Positions 10,570 to 51,810 of a DNA stretch of 64,000 nt are shown here, piece by piece (position 1 is the first letter of the stretch; every line of letters begins with the position of its first letter). Source of the DNA: Patescibacteria group bacterium. GTDB taxonomy: Bacteria > Patescibacteriota > Patescibacteriia > Patescibacteriales > WJLG01. The position numbers were made by a program, and so were the translations under genes. The notes under the pieces were generated by a model that saw nothing but the letters and a program-made list of their open reading frames with translations, was not told where the DNA came from and searched no databases. The DNA is taken from the NCBI GenBank assembly GCA_041652555.1, contig JBAZHE010000002.1:13409-77408 (forward strand), in the 5' to 3' direction.

Positions 10570-10598
10570 TTGACAGATTTTTTTAATGTGTTAATATA
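10570..10598 (+). promoter_or_regulatory. candidate promoter for rplJ-rplL (TTGACA-16-TAATAT); a long leader follows
   Basis: TTGACA at 10570-10575, TAATAT about 16 nt downstream. The 160-nt leader before rplJ is a candidate L10(L12)4 autoregulatory leader (inference). Confidence 0.35.
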
Positions 10599-10728
10599 AG
10601 GTTATTCAATAAAAGCCATAGACAGTAGGCAAAAAATTAAGTCCTGCCGAGGCAAAAAAAACATTTTGTTTTTTATTTGCGTCTGTGGTTAAAAGCCAGA
10701 GATTTTTTTATTAATAAATTTTAATTGT

Positions 10729-26702: not shown

Positions 26703-27777
26703 AATAATTCATATCATTCCGACTTTGTCTGGCGGTGGCGCCGAAAGACTGGTTATTGATTTGGCAGAATTTATTGATAAAGATAAATTTGAAGTTTCAA
26801 TTATTTGCCTGAAAAAGGGCGGAGTTTTAGAGACTGAATTAAAAGAAAAAAATATTCCTTGTTATTTTATCAGTAATGGAAAATGGCCGTTGTTTTTATC
26901 ATTTTTTAAACTAGTAGTGGTTATAAAAAAAATTTCTCCGAATATTGTGCATACGCATCTTTTTGGTGGTGATTTTTATGGTTGTTTAGCGACGCGTCTA
27001 GCCGGTGTAAAAAATATTATTTCTACTGAGCATAATCTTAATTTTTCTGAAGGATTTTTGAAACTTTTTTTGAAAAGATTAACCGCTGGTTTAATTAAAG
27101 AGATTGTTGTGGTTTCGGAGTCTGTTAAAAAATATTTAATAGAAAAAGGTGGAATAAAAAAAGAAAAAATTACCGTTATTTACAATGGTGTAAAAGTTGA
27201 TAAATTTTTAAAGTCAGAAAAAAATTATTCTTGTCAAGATAGAGAATTTGTTATCGGATCAGTCGGGCGATTAGAAAAGCAAAAGGGCTACGACATTTTA
27301 TTAGAAGCTGTTTCTAGAATTAAAGAGCTAATAAAATGTTTGATTGCCGGTGATGGCAGTGAAAAAGAAAGTCTAGAAAAAAAAATTAAAGAGCTCGGTC
27401 TGAATAATAGAGTGCAACTACTTGGTTGGCAAAAAAATGTTTCTGGTTTTTTGAATGATTTGGATGTTTTTGTTTTGCCGTCCCGCTGGGAAGGTTTTGG
27501 TATTGTTGTTTTAGAGGCTGGTTTGGCTGGTTTGCCGGTGATTGGCAGTCGAGTCGATGGTATTGAGGAAATAATTAAAGACGGCGAAAATGGGCTGTTG
27601 TTTGATTCTGAAAATGTTGATGATTTGGCGGCTAAAATTTTGGATTTAAAAAATAACGAGACAGAACGGGCGCGGCTGGGAAAAAATATTCAGAAAAAAA
27701 TCGTGAAAAATTTTGATATTAGAAAAATTGTCAAAGAGTATGAGAAATTATATTTTAGTATGATTAATAAAATATGA
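26689..27777 (+). CDS. glycosyltransferase family 4
   Basis: GT4 C-terminal motif EGFGIVVLEAGLAGLPVIGSRVDGIEEIIKDGENGLL. Confidence 0.75.
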   Translation: MLKNKIIHIIPTLSGGGAERLVIDLAEFIDKDKFEVSIICLKKGGVLETELKEKNIPCYFISNGKWPLFLSFFKLVVVIKKISPNIVHTHLFGGDFYGCLATRLAGVKNIISTEHNLNFSEGFLKLFLKRLTAGLIKEIVVVSESVKKYLIEKGGIKKEKITVIYNGVKVDKFLKSEKNYSCQDREFVIGSVGRLEKQKGYDILLEAVSRIKELIKCLIAGDGSEKESLEKKIKELGLNNRVQLLGWQKNVSGFLNDLDVFVLPSRWEGFGIVVLEAGLAGLPVIGSRVDGIEEIIKDGENGLLFDSENVDDLAAKILDLKNNETERARLGKNIQKKIVKNFDIRKIVKEYEKLYFSMINKI

Positions 27778-28991
27778 AAATCCTTCTCATAAATAATTAT
27801 CATTTTTTACGTGATGGTGCTGCTCGCGCTTATTTTAGCATGGCTGAAATTTTGGAAGACCATGGCCATGAAGTCGCTTTTTTTTCTACTAAAAATGATA
27901 AAAATATTCCAACCAAATGGGATAAATATTTTGTTAATGCACCAGATTTTTCTAATCCGTCTCTAGGATTTTTTGATAAGATAAAAATTATTGGCAATAT
28001 TTTTTATAATTGGCAGGCTAAAAATAATTTAAAAAAAATAATTAAAGAATTTAAGCCGGATATTGCGCATTTACATAATATTTACCATCATATTTCCCCA
28101 TCTATTATTAGTGTTTTGAAAAAAAATAAAATTAAGATGGCAATGACTTTGCATGATTATAAATTGGTCTGCCCGAATTATAATTTGTTTATTCGCGGAA
28201 AAATTTGGGAGGGGAGCGGACCTGATAAATATTGGCGTTGTGTTACTGATAAGTGTGTTAAAAATTCTTATTTAAAAAGTTTAGTTTGTACGGGCGAGGC
28301 TTATTGGCACAAAGCTTTAGGGGTTTACAAAAAAATTGATGGTTTTATTTCCCCTAGTTATTTTTTGATAAAAAAATTTAAAGAATTTGGATTTAAAGAA
28401 AAAATTAATTATTTACCAAATCCTTTTATTTGGGAAAAGAAAAATTTTTCCGCAGAAATGTCGGAGAAGTATATTTTGTATTATGGACGTTTGAGTGAGG
28501 AGAAAGGAGTTGGCGATTTGCTTGCGGCCCATGCTAAGCTTCCTGAAAAATTAAAATTAAAAATTGTTGGCGCTGGACCACTTGCCGATAGTTTAAAATT
28601 AGAGGTAGCCAGAAAAAAAATTCTTGGTGTAGATTTTTTAGGACACCTGGAAAATGAGTCATTGCAAAAAATTATCGCCAGAGCGGAGTTTGTTGTCGTG
28701 CCTTCGCGCTGGTATGAGAACGCTCCTTATTCTGTTATTGAATCTTTGGCGCTCGGGAAAATAGTTCTTGCTTCTCGCCTTGGAGGTTTGGTAGAGTTAA
28801 TTAAAGATGGTCAGAACGGTTTTTCTTTTGAGGCTGGAAACATTAATGATTTGGTTTCTAAGATGAGATATCTAATAGATCATCCAGAGTTAAAAGAAAA
28901 AATTAAGCCGGTGGCGATTGCTTCTGTAGAAATTAACTCGCCAGTGGAATATTATTTAAGATTAATGGAAATTTATAAAAAAATTATTTAA
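27774..28991 (+). CDS. glycosyltransferase family 4
   Basis: ENAPYSVIESLALGKIVLASRLGGLVELIKDGQNGFSFE GT4 motif. Overlaps the upstream GT4 by 4 nt. Confidence 0.7.
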   Translation: MKILLINNYHFLRDGAARAYFSMAEILEDHGHEVAFFSTKNDKNIPTKWDKYFVNAPDFSNPSLGFFDKIKIIGNIFYNWQAKNNLKKIIKEFKPDIAHLHNIYHHISPSIISVLKKNKIKMAMTLHDYKLVCPNYNLFIRGKIWEGSGPDKYWRCVTDKCVKNSYLKSLVCTGEAYWHKALGVYKKIDGFISPSYFLIKKFKEFGFKEKINYLPNPFIWEKKNFSAEMSEKYILYYGRLSEEKGVGDLLAAHAKLPEKLKLKIVGAGPLADSLKLEVARKKILGVDFLGHLENESLQKIIARAEFVVVPSRWYENAPYSVIESLALGKIVLASRLGGLVELIKDGQNGFSFEAGNINDLVSKMRYLIDHPELKEKIKPVAIASVEINSPVEYYLRLMEIYKKII

Positions 28992-28996
28992 AATTA

Positions 28997-29089
28997 GCCC
29001 CCTCTAGAAACCTGCCTGCCGGTAGGCAGAGAGAGTGTGGTCGGACCCAACGGGTCGCCCTTGGCGTACCCCGAGACGGAGTGTGTTGT
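28997..29089 (+). repeat. GC-rich palindromic element, copy A (CCCCTCT ... nested hairpins ... CCGAGACGGAGTGTGTTGTT)
   Basis: Roughly 60% GC in an approx 35% GC genome. Shares 5' CCCCTCT and 3' GACGGRGTGTGTT with copies at 30502-30545 (inverted) and 51552-51603. Confidence 0.5.
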
Positions 29090-29211: not shown

Positions 29212-30489
29212 ATGAAGAAAATCATTGTTATTGCGATTACGCTTTGTGTATTGGGCGCTTCTTTTTATCTATTGAAGCCTGAACCGACACAGAGTAAAAA
29301 TAAGCCGTATTATTCCGGCGAAGCTGTTAATTTTAACGGCAAAATATTCATCGGCTCCACTAATAGTGGAAAGTTTGAGCTTTTTGCTTTGGAGAATGGA
29401 AGCATTATTAGAAAGACTAATGTTGCTTCTAATGATCAAGAGAGTAAGGAGTTCTATGATTTGCTTTTTGAAAAAGCCGGCGGAAAACTCTTTGTTTATT
29501 TAGTTAATGGTCGCTATTTATATAAATATGACATTACTAATCCGATTGTTCCGATTGTAGTTTTGAAAATCAAGGACAATTCTTGGGATTGGTTTACTCG
29601 CCTAGATAAAGTTAACGGAAAATTAATTACCATTGGTTCAAAAGGAACAAAGATTTGGAATAATGATTTCCAGGTTATTGATTCTTATGCCATGATTAAT
29701 AATAGTGTTTTAGGTTCAGTAATTTTTGACAGCCAAATGACTTTTGTTTTGAATACTAAATTAAATGTTTATAACACTGTTTCTAGAGAAAAAGTTTCTG
29801 AATATTCCATCGCGGTTAACGATAAGCAGGCCACTCGTGGTTTGATTAGTAATTCTGACGACAAACTTGTTTATTTTGTTGATGATAAATCTCTTAAAGC
29901 TGTTGATGTTGCTGGTAATGTTAAAAAAGAATTTAAGCATACTTCAACTGTCGGCTATGATGTCGCTTTCTCTGTTGTTAATCCGGATTATATTTATTTT
30001 TCTGACGGCATTGGTATTGTGAAAATTGATAAAAATACTTTTACGCCGGTTGATTGGACTTACACTACTAGAAATACTCCGGCCGGTTCCTGGGCTATGG
30101 GTTTAAAAACCGTTAACGACGGTACCTCTGAAAAAATTGTTATTTTTAACGGTTCTAATATTTTAGTAGTTGATAAAAATTTAGATAATGTTGCTTTTTA
30201 TGAATCAATAGAAGAGGACACTCGCCCGGTTGAAAATCTCTTTTTGAATGTTGATAAGAATCGTGGTGCAGCCGGCGCACAGGTTTCTGTTGTTGGCGGT
30301 GGATTTGGACTAGGCGAAGAATTGACTGTTGAATTTTCTAAAATAAAACAGACAACTATTACTGCTGATCAAAACGGACGTTTTCAAATTGTTTTGACTG
30401 TTCCTAGTGTTTTGCCTGGTATGACTGATATTAAAGCCACTGGCAAGACCACTAAGAAAACTTACAGCACATCATTTAAGATTGAGTAA
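29212..30489 (+). CDS. secreted hypothetical protein with beta-propeller-like region and C-terminal Ig-like (Big/IPT-like) domain
   Basis: Signal peptide MKKIIVIAITLCVLGASFYLL. C-terminal GAQVSVVGGGFGLGEELTVEF ... ITADQNGRFQIVLTVP. Flanked by inverted copies of the GC-rich element. Confidence 0.5.
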   Translation: MKKIIVIAITLCVLGASFYLLKPEPTQSKNKPYYSGEAVNFNGKIFIGSTNSGKFELFALENGSIIRKTNVASNDQESKEFYDLLFEKAGGKLFVYLVNGRYLYKYDITNPIVPIVVLKIKDNSWDWFTRLDKVNGKLITIGSKGTKIWNNDFQVIDSYAMINNSVLGSVIFDSQMTFVLNTKLNVYNTVSREKVSEYSIAVNDKQATRGLISNSDDKLVYFVDDKSLKAVDVAGNVKKEFKHTSTVGYDVAFSVVNPDYIYFSDGIGIVKIDKNTFTPVDWTYTTRNTPAGSWAMGLKTVNDGTSEKIVIFNGSNILVVDKNLDNVAFYESIEEDTRPVENLFLNVDKNRGAAGAQVSVVGGGFGLGEELTVEFSKIKQTTITADQNGRFQIVLTVPSVLPGMTDIKATGKTTKKTYSTSFKIE

Positions 30490-30501: not shown

Positions 30502-30545
30502 AACACACCCCGTCTCGGGTACGAGACACCCCTATCAAGAGGGGG
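30502..30545 (-). repeat. GC-rich palindromic element, copy B (inverted relative to copy A)
   Basis: Minus strand reads TCCCCCTCTTGATAGGGG-TGTCTCGTACCCGAGAC-GGGGTGTGTT. Confidence 0.5.
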
Positions 30546-30555
30546 ATTATAATAT

Positions 30556-31734
30556 ATGAGAATAGCGATTATCGGACAAAAAGGAATACCGGCCAAGTCT
30601 GGTGGCGTGGAAAAACACGTTGAGGACTTAGCTGTGCGCTTAGTGGCTTTGGGCCATGAGGTTTTGGTGTATGCGCGTCCTAATTATACCGATAAGAGTT
30701 TGCAAGAATATAAAGGTGTAAAAATAATTTCTTTGCCAAGTATTTCCACTAAGAATTTGGATGCGATAACACATACTTTTCGCGCCTGTTTGGATTTGGT
30801 TAAAAGAGATGTTGATGTAATCCATTTTCATTCTATCGGCCCATCATCCTTAATTTGGTTGGTCAAGCTTTTGAAACCAAGAACTCCGATTATCGCCACT
30901 GTCCATTGCCCTGATTATCGCCATCAGAAATGGGGGATTTTCGCTAAACTATATTTGAAATTCGGTGAAGTAGTCGCTTGCACTATGGCTGACAAAACAA
31001 TCGCTGTTTCTAAGATTCTGCGCGATTATGCAGTGAAAAATTATAACAGTAAAGTTGAATATATTCCCAGTGGCGTTTCTATTATGAATGGTGAAGCTAA
31101 TGAAAAGATGTTGAAAAATTTTAATTTAAAAAAAGATGGTTATGTTTTAGCTGTGAGCCGTTTAGTAAAACATAAAGGCTTACAATATTTAGTAAAAGCT
31201 TTTGAAAATATAAAAACTGATAAAAAATTAGTGATTGTAGGCGCAAGCGCACACACCGATAAGTTTGTTAGTGAATTAAAAGCTTTGACTCAAAATGATA
31301 AGAGAATGATTTTTACCGGCGAACAGACTGGAGAAACTTTGAATGAACTTTTTGCTAATTGCTATATGTTTGTTCAACCTTCTGAATCCGAAGGCTTGTC
31401 TATCGCTTTATTGGAAGCGATGGCGCACGGCAAGACTGCTTTGGTTTCTGATATTGCAGAAAATCAAGAAGCTATCGGCCATACCGGTTTTACTTTTAAG
31501 AATAAAAACTCTGCTGATTTATTGGGTAAATTAAATTGCTTATTGAGAAATTCGGAGATTGTTAAAGAAACAGGCATACGTGCTCGTGAGCGTGTTTTGA
31601 AAGATTATAATTGGAATGAAATTATTGATAAAGTAATTAACGTTTACGGTGAAGTTGTTTTACAGAAAAAAAAATCTTTCCGCAAATTAGCGAAACTAAA
31701 TTTTGCCGGAAGATTTTTGAATTTGTTTTTCTAA
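30556..31734 (+). CDS. glycosyltransferase family 4
   Basis: N-terminal MRIAIIGQKGIPAKSGGVEKHVEDL and C-terminal ESEGLSIALLEAMAHGKTALVSDIAENQE motifs. Confidence 0.75.
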   Translation: MRIAIIGQKGIPAKSGGVEKHVEDLAVRLVALGHEVLVYARPNYTDKSLQEYKGVKIISLPSISTKNLDAITHTFRACLDLVKRDVDVIHFHSIGPSSLIWLVKLLKPRTPIIATVHCPDYRHQKWGIFAKLYLKFGEVVACTMADKTIAVSKILRDYAVKNYNSKVEYIPSGVSIMNGEANEKMLKNFNLKKDGYVLAVSRLVKHKGLQYLVKAFENIKTDKKLVIVGASAHTDKFVSELKALTQNDKRMIFTGEQTGETLNELFANCYMFVQPSESEGLSIALLEAMAHGKTALVSDIAENQEAIGHTGFTFKNKNSADLLGKLNCLLRNSEIVKETGIRARERVLKDYNWNEIIDKVINVYGEVVLQKKKSFRKLAKLNFAGRFLNLFF

Positions 31735-31881: not shown

Positions 31882-33936
31882 ATGCGCTCCAAGTCATTAG
31901 TAGTTTTTCTGTTTTTTCTGGTTATGCTCGTAATTTTTAGTTGCGACAAAAGCCCTGTATCGCCATCATCGGAAGATGAACGTATTTTTTCCGGTGATCC
32001 ATTAATCGTTGAAGTTGAAAAAGAACCGGTTGATGGTAAAGTCGGAATCAGCTTTTATCTCACTTCTGAAAGTTTTGACTCGGTGAACACCAAGACAGAG
32101 CTTGTTGGATTTGATGACGGCAGGTTACAGGGGTCATATATCTCAAAAGACAATCGTTTGTTCTTTTGGGTTGAAGTGTCCCCCGGAATTTACGTCTTCA
32201 GCTTTAACGGAGATAAAGATGATCCCAAGGAATCAATCATTAGTTCGGATTCATTTTGGGTTCCGGAAATCGGCAAATTTGCTATCAAAGTTACCAAGGA
32301 TTACAAAGTTGTAAAGGCTTCATTAAGTGAAGTTTTGCATCTTGGCAAGGATACTGAGGTTGCAGATTCGGTTGATTCAGTGATCGTGGTTAAGGAAAAT
32401 AGCGACGGCAAGGTGATTATCAAAATCGTTAAGGAAAACGATACGATATTTGATACGGTTACCGTCTCAAAATCAAAGGGCACGATTGTTCTTCTGGGTG
32501 ATTCGGTTATTTATAAAAAACCGTCAAATCCATCCAGCCTAGGTTATGACACGATTAGGTTGTTGCCACCGCAAAGCATTGTTGATTATAACAATGTAGT
32601 CAGGAGTGTTTCATTTGAGGCGGTAACTGTAAATGGGGAAAAGAAGTTTAAAGAGAAGGTTACCATTGACTCTGTTTTGGTAAGAAAGATAAAAGATAAG
32701 GTTTTTAAACCTTTTGCAATCGGTCTGCCAAATTGGAAAGCTTGGAGTAACCTCGGGGTAATAGATTCTAGTACTGGTCGCTATCCATTTACCACTGAAC
32801 CGATGTCGCCAGGACTAATTACCTTTTGTGTTGGTGGCAACTATCAAGATAACTGGGCGGATTCTTCGAAACTAAAAAAGTCCGCTTGGGGTTTTAAAAC
32901 CAAGGATGGTTGGATAATGGCCGGTTGGTTATTTCCCGATGGAAGATTTGTAGCCTGGTCGCTTGTTGACACGACTACGGCAACAGTTAAAGACAGTGTA
33001 AAAATTGATACTGTTGTTATTCATGACACAATCGTTGATTATGACACAACGGTTGTCCGAGATACGATTGTGAAACAAGGTAAAATAATCATTCTTCGGG
33101 ACAGTGTAATTATCATCAGAACAAGAGTGGATACACTTTTAAAGGTGGACACTTTACATGATGTTGATACAATCACTGTTAACGACACGACGGTTATAAA
33201 AGATACTATTATTATCAGGGATACCGTTGTTGTCCGAGATACGATTGTGAAGCAGGGTGATACGATTATATTCCGGGACAGTGTGATTATTATCAGAACA
33301 AGAGTGGACACACTTTTAAATGTGGACACTTTGCATAATAGGGATACGATGTTCGTGTATGATCTTGGGGTGGAAGATGTAGATACAGCCTTTATTGTTA
33401 TTAGTACTTTTAAGGTTGCTGCGGTAGGGGAGATTGTTGTAAAAGATTCCTTTTATATAAAATGGAATTTTCACAACTTTTTAAATGTTGTGAACAAAGA
33501 TTCCTCCTATTTAAGAGATACTATATCTATTTTCCGCGATACAACAGAAATAGATCGTGACACGAATGACCTGGTTCTGGTATTTAAATCGGCAACGGCA
33601 GTAGGAGATAGCTTTGATGTTAAATTTAAAGTTGTCTCAATAGTCGTGCCTGATGATCGTAGTTTTATCAGTGCCATGGGCTTCAAGGGCACGGGAGTTA
33701 TTCAAAGCGACACGATAAATTCCACTTCCAAATCCGACGGGTATTTCAATTTTTCCGTACGGATAAAGAAGGGGACGAAATATCGTATAAATTTCCGTTC
33801 CGGAACTGCCTGGGCTGAACAAGTTGTTTTACGACAGTCCAAATTCGTTTTTGTAGAGGGAACCAGTGTTGATCTGGCAGTTTCCCTTAATAATGACGCT
33901 ACCGGTTTTGATTACGCCTCGCCAGCGGCGCAGTAA
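31882..33936 (+). CDS. hypothetical lipoprotein-like surface protein with internal Asp/Thr/Ile-rich tandem repeats (start moved to the ATG with a perfect SD; the track start at 31753 is an alternative)
   Basis: AAGGAGG SD 6 nt upstream of ATG 31882. Signal peptide with lipobox-like VIFSC. Repeats VRDTIVKQG..I..RDSVIIIRTRVDTLL.VDTLH. Confidence 0.5.
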   Translation: MRSKSLVVFLFFLVMLVIFSCDKSPVSPSSEDERIFSGDPLIVEVEKEPVDGKVGISFYLTSESFDSVNTKTELVGFDDGRLQGSYISKDNRLFFWVEVSPGIYVFSFNGDKDDPKESIISSDSFWVPEIGKFAIKVTKDYKVVKASLSEVLHLGKDTEVADSVDSVIVVKENSDGKVIIKIVKENDTIFDTVTVSKSKGTIVLLGDSVIYKKPSNPSSLGYDTIRLLPPQSIVDYNNVVRSVSFEAVTVNGEKKFKEKVTIDSVLVRKIKDKVFKPFAIGLPNWKAWSNLGVIDSSTGRYPFTTEPMSPGLITFCVGGNYQDNWADSSKLKKSAWGFKTKDGWIMAGWLFPDGRFVAWSLVDTTTATVKDSVKIDTVVIHDTIVDYDTTVVRDTIVKQGKIIILRDSVIIIRTRVDTLLKVDTLHDVDTITVNDTTVIKDTIIIRDTVVVRDTIVKQGDTIIFRDSVIIIRTRVDTLLNVDTLHNRDTMFVYDLGVEDVDTAFIVISTFKVAAVGEIVVKDSFYIKWNFHNFLNVVNKDSSYLRDTISIFRDTTEIDRDTNDLVLVFKSATAVGDSFDVKFKVVSIVVPDDRSFISAMGFKGTGVIQSDTINSTSKSDGYFNFSVRIKKGTKYRINFRSGTAWAEQVVLRQSKFVFVEGTSVDLAVSLNNDATGFDYASPAAQ
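33051..33347 (+). repeat. intragenic direct repeat (two roughly 120-bp copies, about 90% identical, period about 177 bp) inside the 31882-33936 CDS
   Basis: Copy 1 at 33051-33170 and copy 2 at 33228-33347 (GTTGTCCGAGATACGATTGTGAARCARGG ... GTGGACACTTTRCAT). Confidence 0.55.
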
Positions 33937-35035: not shown

Positions 35036-35971
35036 ATGGAATATAAGCACGTAAGCGTAATGCTCGAGGAAGTCTTGAATTTTTTACAACCAAAAAGTGG
35101 CGGGTATTATATTGATTGCACTTTGGGTGGCGCTGGTTATACGCAAGCTATTTCTAAAATTGCCGGAGAAAATGGCCACGTTTTAGCAACTGATCTTGAT
35201 CCGGAAGCGATTGCTAATGCTCGTAAAAAAGATTTAAAGAATGTTGTTTTTGCCCAAGGAAGTTTTGGTGATTTAGCAGAAATTGTGAAAAATAATTTTC
35301 CGGTTGATACTTTTTTTGATGGCGTAGTAATGGACTTGGGTTTGTCTTCGGCGCAGTTAGATGATGAAAAAAGAGGATTTTCATTTTTAAACTCAGGCCC
35401 TTTGGATATGTCTTTCGATGGTCGAGGAGCAGAAAATTCTACAGCGTGTATAGTTAATGATTATAAAGAAGATAAATTAACTGATATTATTCGGCGTTAT
35501 GGTGAAGAAAAATTTGCTTTCAGAATTGCTAAAAAAATAATTGAAGAAAGAAAAAAAGAACCGATAACCGATAGCGCGCGTTTAGCCAAAATCATTGCCG
35601 CGGCGATGCCCTCTTTAACAAGGAGAGAGGGGATCCACCCGGCAACGAGAACTTTTCAGGCTTTGCGAATTGAAACCAATCGTGAATTAGAGGCTCTAGA
35701 AAAAGTTTTGCCAGCCGCTTTAGCTTTGTTAAAGAAAAATGGTCGCCTGGTTGTTGTTTCTTTCCATAGCTTAGAAGATAGAATAGTAAAGAATTTTTTT
35801 AAAAAAGAGAGCGTGGATTGTCTTTGTCCACCAATACTGCCGGTTTGTTGCTGTCATCATCAGGCATCTTTAAAAATTTTGACTAAAAAACCGGTGGAAG
35901 CGAGTGAAAAAGAAATCGTTGCCAATCCACGTTCTCGTAGCGCAAAATTACGCGTTGCCGAAAAAATTTAG
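35036..35971 (+). CDS. rsmH: 16S rRNA (cytosine1402-N4)-methyltransferase RsmH (MraW)
   Basis: SAM-binding YIDCTLGGAGY and the conserved Cys-rich C-terminal region. Follows mraZ. Confidence 0.9.
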   Translation: MEYKHVSVMLEEVLNFLQPKSGGYYIDCTLGGAGYTQAISKIAGENGHVLATDLDPEAIANARKKDLKNVVFAQGSFGDLAEIVKNNFPVDTFFDGVVMDLGLSSAQLDDEKRGFSFLNSGPLDMSFDGRGAENSTACIVNDYKEDKLTDIIRRYGEEKFAFRIAKKIIEERKKEPITDSARLAKIIAAAMPSLTRREGIHPATRTFQALRIETNRELEALEKVLPAALALLKKNGRLVVVSFHSLEDRIVKNFFKKESVDCLCPPILPVCCCHHQASLKILTKKPVEASEKEIVANPRSRSAKLRVAEKI

Positions 35972-44636: not shown

Positions 44637-44709
44637 GCGCCCATAGCTCAGCTGGTAGAGCAACTCCCTTTTAAGGAGATGGTCACAGGTTCGAATCCTG
44701 TTGGGCGCA
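44637..44709 (+). tRNA. tRNA-Lys (anticodon TTT)
   Basis: Cloverleaf: acceptor GCGCCCA/TGGGCGC, D-arm GCTCAGCTGGTAGAGC, anticodon loop CTTTTAA, T-arm with GGTTCGAATCC. Confidence 0.85.
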
Positions 44710-44740: not shown

Positions 44741-44813
44741 GCCACCCTAGCTCAGCTGGTAGAGCAACAGTTTTGTAAACTGTGGGTCGTCGGTTCGAAC
44801 CCGACGGGTGGCT
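44741..44813 (+). tRNA. tRNA-Thr (anticodon TGT)
   Basis: Acceptor GCCACCC/GGGTGGC, anticodon stem ACAGT/ACTGT with loop TTTGTAA, T-arm GGTTCGAACCC. Confidence 0.85.
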
Positions 44814-49534: not shown

Positions 49535-51130
49535 TTATTTATTAAGTTCTTTCTCGAATTTTTCTTCTAAGTTATTTTTCATATCTTCATGAAATTGTTC
49601 GTCGTAATTTTTTACTGCTTTTTTAATTATCCAACAGGAATTTTTTTCTGGGCAGAAACCGGTATTGAAACATTTTGGTTCAATATGCCAATTAAGCCAA
49701 TCCAAATCCATTGTTTTTAGCTTGTGGTTTATTTTTACAGCTTCGTCGCGGGTGACGCGGCGCAATTGTTCATCGGCGGTAGTGCAGAGACGCAAAGGGA
49801 AATAGCCGGCGATTAAATTGTAAAAGTTAACATCTTGCAAAACATAAATTCTAACGGCACGAGGGATGACAAAGATAGCATCATGCTCGGGAACTCCTAG
49901 GGAGATTAATTTTTTATAAGCATCCAAGGATTTTAAAACTGTTTGGGTGTATTTTTTTAAATTTGTTTGGTCGTTGGCGATTTTAGTTGGAATATTTAAT
50001 GTAGTATCAAGATTTTTTATTTGTTCCTCGCTTAAAGTATTATTAGAAATATTTTTGGATAAATCTTGCCAAACCGAACAAGCTTGTTCGGTTGCGTAAT
50101 ACATAGAATCAACCGTCATTGGCATGGTGCGATGGCGTTTTCTTTCTCCCCAAACGCGCCAAGACAAACGAGAAATCATTTTTATATCAAGAGCGTTTTG
50201 GTAATCGCGGGCAATTTCGGCGCGCTTATCAATGGCTGTTGCCCAATTTTTTATCATTGTTTCTTTGTCGGCGTAAATTGCTTCTAAATCTTTTCGTAAA
50301 GAATCCATTTTTTCTTTTAAGGATTTTGTGGCTAGAGAATTGATTGAGACTATTTCACTTTCAGTACTGTTTAATTTTTCTTGAGCTATTTCTCGAGCTA
50401 GATTGACAGTCTTTGGGTTTTTAAAAATATTTGGGTAAGGATAGGTTGTTCGTGGAGCTAGGGAGCGAGATTTGAAAAGTGAGTCAACACCCATTTTTTT
50501 AAATTCCGTCTCTATGGCTTCAATAAAGAATCCTATTTCTTCAGGCATCCAAGCTTTTTCTCGGTCATATTCTCTTTTTAAGGTATTAAAAGACTCAATA
50601 CTATAAGAAATAATGCCGGTACCGTAAACGCCGTATTGTAGGATTTTTGAAGCTTGGTCTTTTTCTATTCCAACCTCTAAAAGTTCGTGAAAAGTGTCTA
50701 GTATTTTTTCAGAAGCTTCTTTATATATTTCTAGAGCTTCTTTGTTTTTGGCAATAGTGGTTGGGTAAACAATATCTTCATAAGTTGAATCAGTGCGACG
50801 TCCAGAGGCCATAAGGGAAGAGGAAAAAACCATACCAGTTAGGGCTGAGTCAATCATTTTTGAGGCTTCATAAGAAAATGAAAAAACTGGTGTTGTCGCC
50901 ATTGAAGCGTGGCCTTTTAAAGAAGAGTTTTTGAGAATGGTTTTAACTTTTTTGGTCATGTCTTGGCCTTTTTCTTCAGCTTCTTTCTTGAGATTTTCAG
51001 CTGATTTTCCTTTAAACGTCAAAAGGGCACCTAGAGCGCAAATGCTTTCTGGATCAAGTCCGCCGTTTTCATCTGTTAGCACCGGGTTGATGCCAAGGAA
51101 ATTTATTTTGAAATCTTTGGTAGATAACAT
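49535..51130 (-). CDS. thyX: flavin-dependent thymidylate synthase ThyX, long form (531 aa) with a roughly 230-aa insertion
   Basis: Exact ThyX motif RHR-X7-S (RHRTMPMTVDS). N-terminal GHASMATTPVFSF aligns with the ThyX HETPFEH region. C-terminal VPEHDAIFVIPRAVRIYV ... LR aligns with the ThyX helical core. Confidence 0.6.
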   Translation of the reverse strand: MLSTKDFKINFLGINPVLTDENGGLDPESICALGALLTFKGKSAENLKKEAEEKGQDMTKKVKTILKNSSLKGHASMATTPVFSFSYEASKMIDSALTGMVFSSSLMASGRRTDSTYEDIVYPTTIAKNKEALEIYKEASEKILDTFHELLEVGIEKDQASKILQYGVYGTGIISYSIESFNTLKREYDREKAWMPEEIGFFIEAIETEFKKMGVDSLFKSRSLAPRTTYPYPNIFKNPKTVNLAREIAQEKLNSTESEIVSINSLATKSLKEKMDSLRKDLEAIYADKETMIKNWATAIDKRAEIARDYQNALDIKMISRLSWRVWGERKRHRTMPMTVDSMYYATEQACSVWQDLSKNISNNTLSEEQIKNLDTTLNIPTKIANDQTNLKKYTQTVLKSLDAYKKLISLGVPEHDAIFVIPRAVRIYVLQDVNFYNLIAGYFPLRLCTTADEQLRRVTRDEAVKINHKLKTMDLDWLNWHIEPKCFNTGFCPEKNSCWIIKKAVKNYDEQFHEDMKNNLEEKFEKELNK

Positions 51131-51201: not shown

Positions 51202-51810
51202 TTATATTTGTACCTCTTGTCCTTCGGTGCTTACTCTTCCGCCCATCCATTGGCCACGATATTGATTGCCTTCACCTAGAACTTCTTGAAAGGTGATATG
51301 GGCGATACGAGCACCGAAAGAAATTTTAACATTAGCTGGACCAAGATTGCAAACACCAAAAGTTAATTCTCCAGAATATCCCGGTTGAACAATCCCGTTA
51401 AACATTCCAAGGCCGGAACGAAACATTGTTGTGCGCGGGAAGACAACTCCGGAAAGAGTAGTCGGCAAATTAACTTTTTCCATTGTTTTAACAAGGTAAT
51501 ATTTTCCAGGTTCAAAAATAAAAATATCTTCGTTAACAGAAGTTGGCAAATCCCCTCTAAAAAGAGGGGTGGCGCGGTACTCCGCGACGGGGTGTGTTGT
51601 GTTGGAATTTTGAGCTTTGCCAACTAGTTTAGTGTTTGGTGTTTGTCTTTCTTCTACACCTAAAAATCCATCTCCTTCTAATTCATAAATTTCTCCCAAC
51701 CTCAAATCAAAACCCGCACCTTCGGGATTATTCATTTCCCGTTCGCACAAACCCCCAACCAGATTTATTTCCCTTACTAATTCGTGTAGTTTTTTAATAC
51801 CTAGAATCAT
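51202..51810 (-). CDS. dcd: dCTP deaminase
   Basis: GFDLRLG ... PRTTMFRSGLGMFNGIVQPGYSGELTFGVCN matches Dcd motifs. Contains an in-frame copy of the GC-rich element. Confidence 0.8.
   Translation of the reverse strand: MILGIKKLHELVREINLVGGLCEREMNNPEGAGFDLRLGEIYELEGDGFLGVEERQTPNTKLVGKAQNSNTTHPVAEYRATPLFRGDLPTSVNEDIFIFEPGKYYLVKTMEKVNLPTTLSGVVFPRTTMFRSGLGMFNGIVQPGYSGELTFGVCNLGPANVKISFGARIAHITFQEVLGEGNQYRGQWMGGRVSTEGQEVQI
51552..51603 (+). repeat. GC-rich palindromic element, copy C, lying in frame within dcd (encodes NSNTTHPVAEYRATPLFRGDLP on the opposite strand)
   Basis: CCCCTCTAAAAAGAGGGG-TGGCGCGGTACTCCGCGAC-GGGGTGTGTTGTGTT. The stem GCGCGG/CCGCGC replaces copy B's GTCTCG/CGAGAC (compensatory change). 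Confidence 0.45.

What the first reader, a model, noticed from the sequence alone, without database searches (positions are those of the whole stretch)
28997..29089. Family of GC-rich palindromic repeat elements (three copies) with conserved termini and compensatory stem changes
Three elements share the ends 5'-CCCCTCT and GACGG(A/G)GTGTGTT-3': copy A at 28997-29089, copy B at 30502-30545 (inverted) and copy C at 51552-51603. They are about 55-60% GC in an approx 35% GC genome. Each begins with a CCCCTC ... GAGGGG hairpin followed by a second hairpin. In copy B the second stem is GTCTCG/CGAGAC and in copy C it is GCGCGG/CCGCGC, so the sequence differs but pairing is kept, which argues for selection on structure. 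Copy A is longer with extra nested hairpins. This looks like a small structured repeat family (REP/RPE/MITE-like, or a structured RNA) not explained by any gene.
Basis: seen in the sequence. Interest (0 to 1): 0.8.

Follow-up and report, generated by a model that had tools for sequence, protein, structure and literature searches.

The report
Triplex-forming DNA repeats, nuclease-linked
The three GC-rich elements are real copies of a widespread selfish DNA repeat whose single strand can fold into a hairpin plus a third strand (a triple helix); one copy sits in frame inside an essential gene, and relatives elsewhere bracket a small nuclease gene that may be what moves them.

Summary
The repeat family is real. 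Copies B (30502-30548, -) and C (51548-51598, +) score 52.7 and 51.2 bits (E about 1e-14) against a covariance model built from copies in other genomes. Copy A is a divergent form with extra hairpins nested in it.

No Rfam family matches it.

Each unit has a pyrimidine arm (CCCCTCT), a loop, a purine arm (AGAGGGG), a strongly covarying second hairpin and a GGGGTGTGTT tail. The tail covaries with the first hairpin by the purine-motif triplex rule: G over G-C, T or A over A-T.

That places it in the known BoxC / PIT / "TM" class of intrastrand-triplex DNA repeats (Holder 2015). It is a variant, because a hairpin sits in the second loop.

I did not find three points reported in the searchable literature:
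- Related copies bracket a ~125-aa DUF559 (Vsr-like) nuclease gene. This holds in 11 element-selected loci and in at least 51 of 80 protein-selected loci.
- Copies sit in frame inside genes. Copy C is inside a dCTP-deaminase-like gene; elsewhere they are in T9SS sorting domains, TGT, UvrA, OGG and ExoIII.
- The same deaminase loop was hit independently in both orientations.

A structured-RNA reading is not supported.

The parts
51548..51598 (+). Copy C, canonical unit. It has the conserved AAAT 5' flank, Py arm 51552-51558 (CCCCTCT), loop 51559-51562, Pu arm 51563-51569 (AGAGGGG), hairpin 2 at 51571-51588 and third-strand tail 51589-51598 (GGGGTGTGTT). The tail's GTGTT is duplicated out to 51603.
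   Evidence: The covariance model gives 51.2 bits, E 2.3e-14. All 7 of 7 triplets fit the triplex rule. The DNA fold is -15.1 kcal/mol with z -4.9.
30502..30548 (-). Copy B, a unit on the minus strand. It has Py arm 30544-30538 (CCCCTCT), Pu arm 30535-30529 (ATAGGGG, one G-to-T change), hairpin 2 at 30527-30512 (GTCTCG/CGAGAC with loop TACC) and tail 30511-30502 (GGGGTGTGTT). It lies between the stop at 30489 and the start at 30556 of two plus-strand genes.
   Evidence: The covariance model gives 52.7 bits, E 7.4e-15. The unit is found by the triplex scan. The DNA fold has z -2.4.
28997..29087 (+). Copy A, a divergent composite unit. It has Py arm 28999-29005 (CCCCTCT), with the hairpin CTGCCT/AGGCAG (29012-29029) nested in loop 1. 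The Pu arm is 29030-29036 (AGAGAGT). Loop 2 (29037-29077) holds two small hairpins, GACCC/GGGTC and CGCC/GGCG. The tail is 29078-29087 (GGAGTGTGTT). It begins 6 nt after the stop of the glycosyltransferase gene.
   Evidence: Both termini are shared with B and C. The covariance model gives only 7.9 bits, E 3.8. The G-to-A change in the Pu arm (29034) is mirrored by a G-to-A change in the tail (29080) at the triplet-equivalent position. This comes from reading the sequence, not from a tool.
51202..51810 (-). dCTP-deaminase-like gene (202 aa) that carries copy C, antisense and in frame, as residues about 68-88 (NSNTTHPVAEYRATPLFRGD).
   Evidence: Pfam DCD PF22769 matches with E 5.5e-21. Most orthologues are 182 aa and lack the insert. 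AlphaFold gives pLDDT below 50 for residues 69-93 only, apart from the C-terminal segments 182-195 and 198-200.
27774..28991 (+). Glycosyltransferase gene immediately upstream of copy A. It is context, not part of the element.
   Evidence: Pfam Glycos_transf_1 matches with E 3.8e-31.
30556..31734 (+). Glycosyltransferase gene immediately downstream of copy B. It is context, not part of the element.
   Evidence: Pfam Glycos_transf_1 and Glyco_transf_4 match.

Best explanation
The three elements are copies of a selfish, dispersed DNA repeat of the intrastrand-triplex class (BoxC / PIT / TM).

As single-stranded DNA, each unit can fold as follows. A pyrimidine arm (CCCCTCT) pairs with a purine arm (AGAGGGG). 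The strand then turns back, here through an inserted and freely covarying hairpin. The G/T tail (GGGGTGT) lies along the purine arm as a third strand, giving G·G-C and T·A-T triplets.

Shown here:
- the family and its sharp boundaries;
- covariation of the hairpin and of the third strand;
- spread across phyla;
- inverted doublets in other genomes;
- in-frame copies inside genes;
- physical linkage of related copies, as inverted terminal units, to a ~125-aa DUF559 (Vsr-like PD-(D/E)XK) nuclease gene.

Inferred:
- The unit made of two inverted elements around a DUF559 gene (about 430-630 bp) is the autonomous form.
- The nuclease recognises the folded ends and nicks them, for example on exposed lagging-strand template.
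- Solo units and gene-less doublets such as A, B and C are non-autonomous copies spread in trans.
- Copies survive only where they do little harm. That means between genes (A, B) or in a disordered surface loop of a protein when they happen to keep the reading frame (C).
For: Family and structure:
- B and C match model R1, which was built from other genomes.
- Conservation stops exactly at A-W-T|CCCC on the 5' side and at GTGTGTT| on the 3' side.
- Helix 2 covaries strongly.

Triplex:
- Next to DUF559 genes that were chosen by protein alone, the tail follows the pyrimidine arm.
  - CCCCTCT goes with GGGGTGTG in 55 of 72.
  - CCCCTCC goes with GGGGTGGG in 38 of 43.
  - CTCCTCT goes with GAGGTGTG in 4 of 5.
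  - CCCTTCT goes with GGGATGTG in 2 of 2.
- 120 of 143 units carry the tail predicted from their arm, against 53 ± 5 when arms are shuffled.
- The class is described in the literature, and triplex formation was shown in vitro for the E. coli member (PMC4666352).

Nuclease link:
- The only element-specific recurrent gene in 118 element-selected loci is a DUF559 gene. It sits between two inverted copies in 11 loci.
- Pfam PF04480 matches at E 1e-28 to 1e-31. PDB 3hrl matches at E 1.6e-24, and the homing endonuclease 3r3p at E 2e-3.
- D54, E65, D67 and H72 are invariant.
- In the reverse test on 80 protein-selected metagenome loci, 27 have a copy on both sides and 24 more on one side, with the tail pointing inward.
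- In cultured isolates, DUF559 genes are flanked by lineage-specific triplex units. This is seen in Pseudanabaena, Picosynechococcus and Deinococcus. In E. coli the units lie on the 3' side only.

Mobility and tolerance:
- The same deaminase loop carries a sense copy in L201 and L202, an antisense copy in the window, and none in L203.
- In-frame copies lie in a T9SS sorting domain, TGT, UvrA, an OGG-like glycosylase and an ExoIII-like nuclease.
- The insert is a low-confidence loop in the structure model.
- E. coli genomes hold 1 to 29 places each.
Against: - No transposition event, target-site duplication or clean filled/empty pair at strain level was found. Comparisons of orthologues and paralogues were too diverged to define insertion junctions.
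- No DUF559 gene lies in this 64-kb window. The rest of the genome was not available.
- A PD-(D/E)XK nuclease acting alone is not a known transposase.
- 25 to 29 of the 80 DUF559 loci show no model hit at E <= 0.01. The sequence-agnostic scan also finds units in the control orientation at 40 of 80 loci.
- The Deinococcus unit has the opposite polarity.
- The arm/tail correlation could partly reflect shared descent of sub-families.
- Holder et al. saw no stable triplex in double-stranded DNA or in vivo.
- The 80 metagenome loci are the closest relatives of the nucleases that were already element-linked, so generality across all of DUF559 is not shown.
Confidence: 0.62

Rival explanations
1. The repeats are host DNA structural elements, for example sites that pause replication or promote rearrangement. 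DUF559 is then a structure-specific repair or maintenance nuclease that processes them, not an enzyme that spreads them.
For: - Holder et al. link the E. coli members to local genomic variability and found no mobility genes.
- Vsr, the characterised relative, is a repair nickase.
- Some copies are conserved at orthologous sites across species. Examples are L100/L111/L116 and L053/L076/L090.
Against: - A host function does not explain why the nuclease gene itself is bracketed by inverted copies in more than half of the loci.
- It does not explain the patchy spread across phyla.
- It does not explain insertion into essential coding sequences in both orientations.
Confidence: 0.17
2. DUF559 is a free-standing homing endonuclease gene. 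Its target is the spacer of pre-existing tail-to-tail repeat doublets. The repeats are landing pads and spread by some other route.
For: - Tail-to-tail doublets with 13-80 nt spacers are common (19 within 120 nt).
- The gene always sits between tail-inward copies.
- A DUF559 relative, I-Bth0305I (3r3p), is a homing endonuclease.
Against: - This leaves the spread of solo units, which are half of all units, unexplained.
- It also leaves their sharp single-unit boundaries unexplained.
- Sub-type-matched ends travel with distantly related nucleases in cyanobacteria, Deinococcus and E. coli. That is more easily explained by co-transmission.
Confidence: 0.13
3. The elements are structured RNAs: a cis-regulatory motif, a small RNA, a ribozyme or a terminator.
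For: - Helix 2 covaries as in a functional RNA.
- A and B lie in intergenic regions next to gene ends.
- RNA folds of B and C on the element strand are only modestly better than shuffles (z -1.8 and -2.6). The complementary strands reach z -2.8 and -4.7.
Against: - No Rfam match was found, even at E <= 10.
- Copies occur in either orientation relative to neighbouring genes and inside ORFs.
- No T-run follows the tail.
- The conserved tail fits a purine-motif triplex, which is stated not to form in RNA.
- PIT elements showed no promoter or terminator activity.
- The GNA triloops closed by C-G are typical of DNA mini-hairpins. This rests on my own knowledge.
Confidence: 0.04

Closest known systems
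BoxC / PIT elements / TM (TMECO) intrastrand-triplex repeats (Bachellier 1990s; Hoyne and Maher 2000; Holder et al. 2015, PMC4666352)
   Same: - Three consecutive blocks: a Py arm, a Pu arm and a G-rich third block that obeys the purine-motif triplet rule.
- G/C-rich, about 35-50 nt, multi-copy and dispersed.
- Sometimes present as inverted pairs.
- Function unknown.
   Different: - The arms are 7 nt (CCCCTCT), not the 9-nt CCCTCNCCC consensus.
- The second loop holds a covarying hairpin of 16-18 nt or more, whereas the ITxF search allows loops of 1-6 nt.
- Found here in Patescibacteria and many uncultivated phyla rather than in Proteobacteria and Cyanobacteria.
- Found inside coding sequence, whereas TMECO is reported as always intergenic.
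- Linked here to a DUF559 nuclease gene, whereas the paper reports finding no mobility genes.
REP / BIME / REPIN elements with RAYT (TnpA-REP) transposases
   Same: - Short GC-rich palindromic units.
- Solo units or inverted doublets made of two alternating sub-types.
- A small nuclease gene bracketed by inverted units.
- A conserved linear motif next to a variable hairpin.
   Different: - No GTAG tetranucleotide.
- The bracketed gene is a PD-(D/E)XK (DUF559) nuclease, not an HUH Y1 transposase.
- A third-strand block is present.
- The sequence is conserved across phyla rather than being species-specific.
Rickettsia palindromic elements (RPE)
   Same: Palindromic repeats inserted in frame into housekeeping protein genes, tolerated as extra surface peptide segments, and found in both coding and non-coding DNA.
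   Different: - RPEs are about 100-150 bp and confined to Rickettsia.
- RPEs are not triplex-type.
- No associated nuclease gene is known for RPEs.
MITEs derived from insertion sequences
   Same: Gene-less doublets with inverted ends look like internal-deletion derivatives of a unit that carries a gene.
   Different: - No target-site duplication was found.
- Single ends also occur as discrete units.
- The putative enzyme is not a known transposase family.
Vsr and EDxHD homing endonuclease I-Bth0305I (relatives of DUF559)
   Same: The same nuclease fold clade. The 3r3p match has E 2e-3.
   Different: - Vsr is a mismatch repair nickase and I-Bth0305I is encoded in an intron.
- Neither is known to be flanked by triplex repeats.

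Membership tests
BoxC / PIT / TM intrastrand-triplex repeats | Three consecutive blocks (a Py arm, its Watson-Crick Pu arm and a G/T or G/A third block) giving G·G-C and T/A·A-T triplets, with the third block antiparallel to the Pu arm. | tested here: met
   - Copy C fits at 7 of 7 triplets.
- Copy B fits at 6 of 7, with one Pu-arm mismatch.
- Copy A fits at about 5-6 of 7, with a mirrored G-to-A change (reading).
- Family-wide covariation of arm and tail is shown.
BoxC / PIT / TM intrastrand-triplex repeats | Both loops short (1-6 nt in the ITxF search; 0-10 nt in Hoyne et al.). | tested here: not met
   - Loop 1 is 2-4 nt in B and C.
- Loop 2 is 17-19 nt and holds a hairpin.
- Copy A has long loops on both sides.
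- Short-loop relatives (TTA, TA, CA) exist next to DUF559 genes.
BoxC / PIT / TM intrastrand-triplex repeats | TMECO consensus CCCTCNCCC N3-6 GGGNGAGGG N3 GGGNGAGGG. | tested here: not met
   The window copies have CCCCTCT / AGAGGGG / GGGGTGT. The E. coli copy near the DUF559 gene does fit this consensus.
BoxC / PIT / TM intrastrand-triplex repeats | Triplex formation by the isolated strand, shown by CD, NMR or melting. | not testable with these tools
   This has been shown only for TMECO, in PMC4666352.
BoxC / PIT / TM intrastrand-triplex repeats | Multi-copy, dispersed and over-represented compared with chance. | tested here: met
   - There are 3 copies in 64 kb.
- 227 units were found in 831 kb of related loci.
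- Shuffled windows give about 0.7 relaxed hits each.
REP / BIME with RAYT | Conserved 5' GTAG (or similar) tetranucleotide at the foot of the palindrome. | tested here: not met
   The 5' boundary is A-W-T followed by CCCCTCT.
REP / BIME with RAYT | An HUH Y1 transposase (RAYT) gene flanked by inverted units. | tested here: not met
   - The only element-specific recurrent gene is DUF559.
- The other large ORF clusters are T9SS-tailed proteins, ABC ATPases and histidine kinases.
- The ABC ATPase and histidine kinase assignments come from reading the sequences and were not scanned against Pfam.
REP / BIME with RAYT | Inverted doublets made of two sub-types. | tested here: met
   There are 35 head-to-head and 19 tail-to-tail pairs within 120 nt. 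Two hairpin-2 sub-types are paired in doublets. No doublet is present in the window itself.
Rickettsia palindromic elements (RPE-like behaviour) | In-frame insertion into conserved protein genes that orthologues lack. | tested here: met
   - The window deaminase is 202 aa against 182 aa for most orthologues.
- In-frame copies also lie in TGT, UvrA, OGG, ExoIII and a T9SS tail.
- The behaviour matches, but sequence and size do not, so this is not a member of the RPE family.
Rfam structured RNA families | A match to any curated covariance model. | tested here: not met
   Searches gave no relevant match, even at E <= 10.

The most novel reading that the evidence does not exclude
BoxC / PIT / TM triplex repeats have had no assigned function since the 1990s. 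On this reading they are the ends, and the orphaned ends, of a previously unrecognised class of minimal mobile element. The element is about 450-600 bp and encodes only a Vsr-like DUF559 nuclease. It acts on a folded triplex-plus-hairpin form of single-stranded DNA. It spreads across bacterial phyla, into Patescibacteria and apparently into DPANN archaea. It also remodels proteins by in-frame insertion.
Probability: 0.4. Interest if true: 0.85.

Novelty: new variant of a known kind. Interest (0 to 1): 0.68.

Why it matters
Intrastrand-triplex repeats are abundant in E. coli, Neisseria, cyanobacteria and, as shown here, many uncultivated phyla. No function, origin or means of spread has been established for them. 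The 2015 survey explicitly reported finding no mobility genes nearby.

A consistent physical link to a small, conserved nuclease of unknown function turns that open question into direct experiments in tractable organisms. Two examples are E. coli ycjD with its BoxC copies and the plasmids of Picosynechococcus PCC 7002/7003.

The in-frame copies in a dCTP deaminase, TGT, UvrA, repair nucleases and T9SS sorting domains show that these repeats also add peptide segments to essential proteins in streamlined genomes. This matters in two ways. They generate spurious "hypothetical" peptides and length variants in annotation. They are also a source of loop variation in protein evolution.

Tried and rejected
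- **Rfam.** I scanned the whole window at gathering threshold, the A/B region at E <= 10, and five canonical loci. Nothing relevant was found.
- **Literature search by sequence string**. It returned only chance hits.
- **Viral contigs**. There were only 2 matches, so phages are not a major carrier.
- **Plasmid BLAST with a canonical unit**. Nothing convincing was found.
- **Length modulo 3 of in-ORF copies**, to infer the inserted unit and any target duplication. The result was mixed and uninformative, because open stretches include non-coding DNA and the loops vary in length.
- **Junction inference** from T9SS paralogues and deaminase orthologues. The loops are too diverged. An apparent ATTC repeat in L201 is not consistent with the sharp 3' boundary, so I dropped it.
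- **A DUF559 gene in the window.** A weak tblastn hit at 32917-33141 (E 1e-3) is not supported by Pfam.
- **Early guesses considered and dropped**, from my own knowledge plus the absence of Rfam hits: integron attC sites, CRISPR repeats (the tandem arrays in L117 and L039 have identical "spacers"), guanidine-III or other riboswitches, and small ribozymes.
- **GC-rich patch at 35597-35636.** It is ordinary coding sequence with a partial palindrome.
- **Other recurrent ORF clusters** in the element-selected loci. They are ABC ATPases and histidine kinases, which are ubiquitous paralogues and not specific to the element.

Full report
**1. The observation**

Reading the three sites confirms the shared ends.
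- All three copies begin with CCCCTCT.
- All three end with CCGMGACGGRGTGTGTT.
- The 13-mer GACGGRGTGTGTT occurs exactly three times. With up to two mismatches there are five matches, against a mean of 0.95 in shuffles.
- The copies are 57-62% GC in a window of 33-42% GC.

Some details in the finding needed correcting.
- Only copy C has the full CCCCTCT/AGAGGGG hairpin.
- B carries ATAGGGG.
- A has AGAGAGT, with an extra hairpin nested in the loop.
- The 3' arm of C's second stem is CCGCGAC.
- B and C alone therefore give one compensatory pair plus one added pair.

**2. Where the copies lie**

- A begins 6 nt after the stop codon (28989-28991) of a glycosyltransferase gene.
- B lies between a gene of unknown function and a second glycosyltransferase gene.
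- C lies inside ORF 51202-51810 (-). This is a dCTP-deaminase-like protein (Pfam DCD, E 5.5e-21).
- C reads through, antisense and in frame, as NSNTTHPVAEYRATPLFRGD.
- The organism is a Patescibacteria (CPR) MAG.
- Most orthologues are 182 aa. This one is 202 aa, and the extra residues fall in one loop.
- AlphaFold gives pLDDT below 50 for residues 69-93, between two confident strands. The only other low-confidence segments are C-terminal, at 182-195 and 198-200.

**3. A large family across phyla**

- I scanned one genome per species with CCCTCT... that is, CCCCTCT N15-45 GACGGRGTGTGTT.
- The loci come from:
  - Pelosinus;
  - Ignavibacteria;
  - Opitutaceae and Lacunisphaera;
  - Zixibacteria;
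  - Cloacimonadota;
  - Aminicenantes;
  - Thermodesulfobacteriota;
  - Kuenenia;
  - Nitrospinota;
  - Bacteroidota;
  - Alphaproteobacteria;
  - Falkowbacteria, Magasanikbacteria and Saccharibacteria;
  - one Nanoarchaeia MAG.
- Several genomes hold 6-7 or more copies.
- Between the fixed ends, the purine arm plus TG is nearly invariant. The second hairpin varies freely in sequence and length while staying paired.
- Conservation stops sharply at A(80%)-W-T(95%)|CCCC on the 5' side and directly after GTGTGTT on the 3' side.
- I built covariance model R1 from 60 of these copies.
  - In the window it scores B at 52.7 bits and C at 51.2 bits.
  - It scores A at 7.9 bits and finds nothing else.
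- On 100 loci R1 finds 184 matches.
- On the resulting alignment, 92.3% of cells pair, against 81.8% when shuffled.
  - There are 163 double-sided changes, against 41.5.
  - Two pairs of helix 2 show all four Watson-Crick types.
  - Helix 1 is conserved in sequence.
- No Rfam family matches.

**4. A third structural block**

Copies next to DUF559 genes (section 5) fall into sub-types in which the 3' tail tracks the pyrimidine arm.

| Pyrimidine arm | Tail | Count |
|---|---|---|
| CCCCTCT | GGGGTGTG | 55 of 72 |
| CCCCTCC | GGGGTGGG | 38 of 43 |
| CTCCTCT | GAGGTGTG | 4 of 5 |
| CCCTTCT | GGGATGTG | 2 of 2 |

- Read in the same 5'-to-3' direction, C in the arm corresponds to G in the tail, and T corresponds to T or A.
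- This puts G over each G-C pair and T or A over each A-T pair, with the tail antiparallel to the purine arm. That is the purine-motif triplex rule.
- 120 of 143 units carry the tail predicted from their own arm, against 53 ± 5 when arms are shuffled.
- Shared descent of sub-families inflates such a test. However, in four independent arm types the change falls at the mirrored position with the allowed base.
- B and C fit the rule.
- A shows a G-to-A change in the purine arm that is mirrored in the tail.
- In short relatives the link between purine arm and tail is only TTA, TA or CA. In the window copies it holds hairpin 2.

**5. The class is already known**

- A literature search led to Holder et al. 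2015 (PMC4666352).
- These are BoxC (1990s), PIT elements (Hoyne and Maher 2000) and "TM/TMECO" intrastrand triplex motifs.
- That paper reports the following.
  - Triplex formation was shown in vitro by CD and NMR for the E. coli member.
  - Purine-motif triplexes do not form in RNA.
  - The elements have no promoter or terminator activity.
  - The E. coli copies are always intergenic.
  - Flanks are more variable than control sites.
  - The authors "never found" transposase or integrase remnants nearby.
- The window copies are therefore a variant of a known kind.

**6. Link to a nuclease gene**

- I clustered all ORFs of the 118 element-selected loci. One element-specific family emerged: a ~125-aa protein in 11 loci.
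  - Each gene sits between two inverted units whose tails point inward.
  - The whole units are about 430-630 bp.
- The protein is DUF559.
  - PF04480 matches at E 1e-28 to 1e-31.
  - It matches PDB 3hrl (E 1.6e-24) and, weakly, the homing endonuclease I-Bth0305I (3r3p, E 2e-3).
  - It belongs to the Vsr clade of PD-(D/E)XK nucleases.
  - D54, E65, D67 and H72 are invariant.
- As a reverse test, I fetched 80 DUF559 loci from metagenomes by protein similarity only and scanned them with R1.
  - 27 have a unit on both sides and 24 more have one on one side.
  - Upstream units are always on the plus strand and downstream units on the minus strand.
- A sequence-agnostic triplex scan finds a unit next to the gene in 68 of 80 loci. 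The control orientation also scores in 40 of 80.
- More distant DUF559 genes in cultured organisms are flanked by lineage-specific units that obey the same rule.
  - Pseudanabaena and Picosynechococcus have CCCCC..GGGGG.CTA.GGGGG.
  - Deinococcus has CCCTCTCCCC..GGGAGAGGG.TT.GGGAGAGGGG, with reversed polarity.
  - E. coli has a degenerate unit at the stop codon and a BoxC/TMECO copy about 180 nt downstream.
- The E. coli repeat is present in all 5426 genomes searched, at 1-29 places each.
- I found no paper linking DUF559 or YcjD to these repeats.
- The window itself holds no DUF559 gene.

**7. Behaviour as selfish DNA**

- About half of the units in related loci are solo. The rest form head-to-head (35), tail-to-tail (19) or tandem (7) pairs.
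- Doublets often combine two hairpin-2 sub-types.
- Ignavibacteria:
  - The unit sits in frame at one position of many paralogous T9SS sorting domains (..NPFNPxTxIxFxI[PLLRGVSEGRGVL]TxLxIYD..; Por_Secre_tail, E 2.8e-9).
  - Neighbouring paralogues lack it.
- Other in-frame copies lie inside:
  - TGT (E 1.9e-140);
  - an OGG-like glycosylase;
  - UvrA;
  - an ExoIII-like nuclease.
- The deaminase loop has been hit repeatedly.
  - L201 has a sense copy.
  - L202 has a sense copy plus an antisense short unit of the CCCCTCC type.
  - The window has an antisense copy.
  - L203 has none.

**8. What could not be shown**

- I could not define junctions or target duplications.
- I observed no transposition.
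- The mechanism by which a lone PD-(D/E)XK nuclease would spread such units is inference.
- Two rivals remain open. In one, DUF559 is a maintenance nuclease for a host structural element. In the other, it is a homing endonuclease gene that lands in doublets.
- The structured-RNA reading is the least supported.

**Verdict**

This is a real family and a new variant of a known class. Two leads may be new: the nuclease link and the in-frame insertions. Together they make an old open question testable.

Noticed in passing
window 10598-10717 (+); 44637-44709 (+); 44741-44813 (+): A ribosomal protein L10 leader (48.2 bits) and two tRNA genes are the only Rfam matches in the window at gathering threshold.
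   Followed up: no
window 49535-51130 (-): A ThyX-like ORF of 531 aa with two Thy1 stretches. This is about twice the usual size. It sits next to the dCTP-deaminase-like and dCMP-deaminase genes.
   Followed up: no
alignment A1: P0011, P0013, P0096; 192-aa orthologues such as P0003, P0004, P0012: The same deaminase loop holds unrelated GC-rich inserts in other Patescibacteria. One type reads CHCEESPGRRSNP..IAS..RNDN; another is a 10-aa insert. The loop is therefore a general sink for different repeat families.
   Followed up: partly
L202 2724-2761 (-): A second, short unit of the CCCCTCC type lies antisense just upstream of the sense unit in the same deaminase loop.
   Followed up: partly
L023, L012, L006, L096, L081, L013, L074, L075, L005: Doublets pair two distinct hairpin-2 sub-types, GGCGCGnAGCGAC with GCCCGnnAGGGC. 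This is reminiscent of the alternating REP types in BIMEs.
   Followed up: no
L126, L141, L155: Units that carry a DUF559 gene are often asymmetric. The upstream end has hairpin 2, and the downstream end is the short GGGG-ATTTA-GGGGTGTGTT form. This suggests distinct left and right ends.
   Followed up: no
L206 1406-1440 and 1802-1844 (Deinococcus aetherius pDAETH-1): Here the flanking triplex units face the DUF559 gene with their 5' ends. This is the opposite polarity to all other cases seen.
   Followed up: no
L117 (four copies, 72-nt period) and L039 (two copies, 68-nt period): Tandem arrays in which the "spacers" are also repeated. They are tandem duplications of a longer unit, not CRISPR arrays.
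   Followed up: partly
L207 (E. coli, sapF side) and PMC12817139: The E. coli DUF559 gene ycjD occupies the site where the eefRABCD operon is missing. That paper infers at least two independent losses there, so the nuclease gene sits at a rearrangement-prone locus.
   Followed up: partly
window 51594-51603: The last five bases of copy C's tail (GTGTT) are directly duplicated.
   Followed up: no
L070 (Nanoarchaeia MAG) 2217-2266 and 330-379: Two good copies (53.3 and 52.4 bits) lie in a contig assigned to a DPANN archaeon. This could be real cross-domain spread or a binning error.
   Followed up: no
L053, L076, L090; L100, L111, L116: Some copies sit at orthologous sites in related species, so individual insertions can persist through speciation. 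L090 has lost the purine arm.
   Followed up: no
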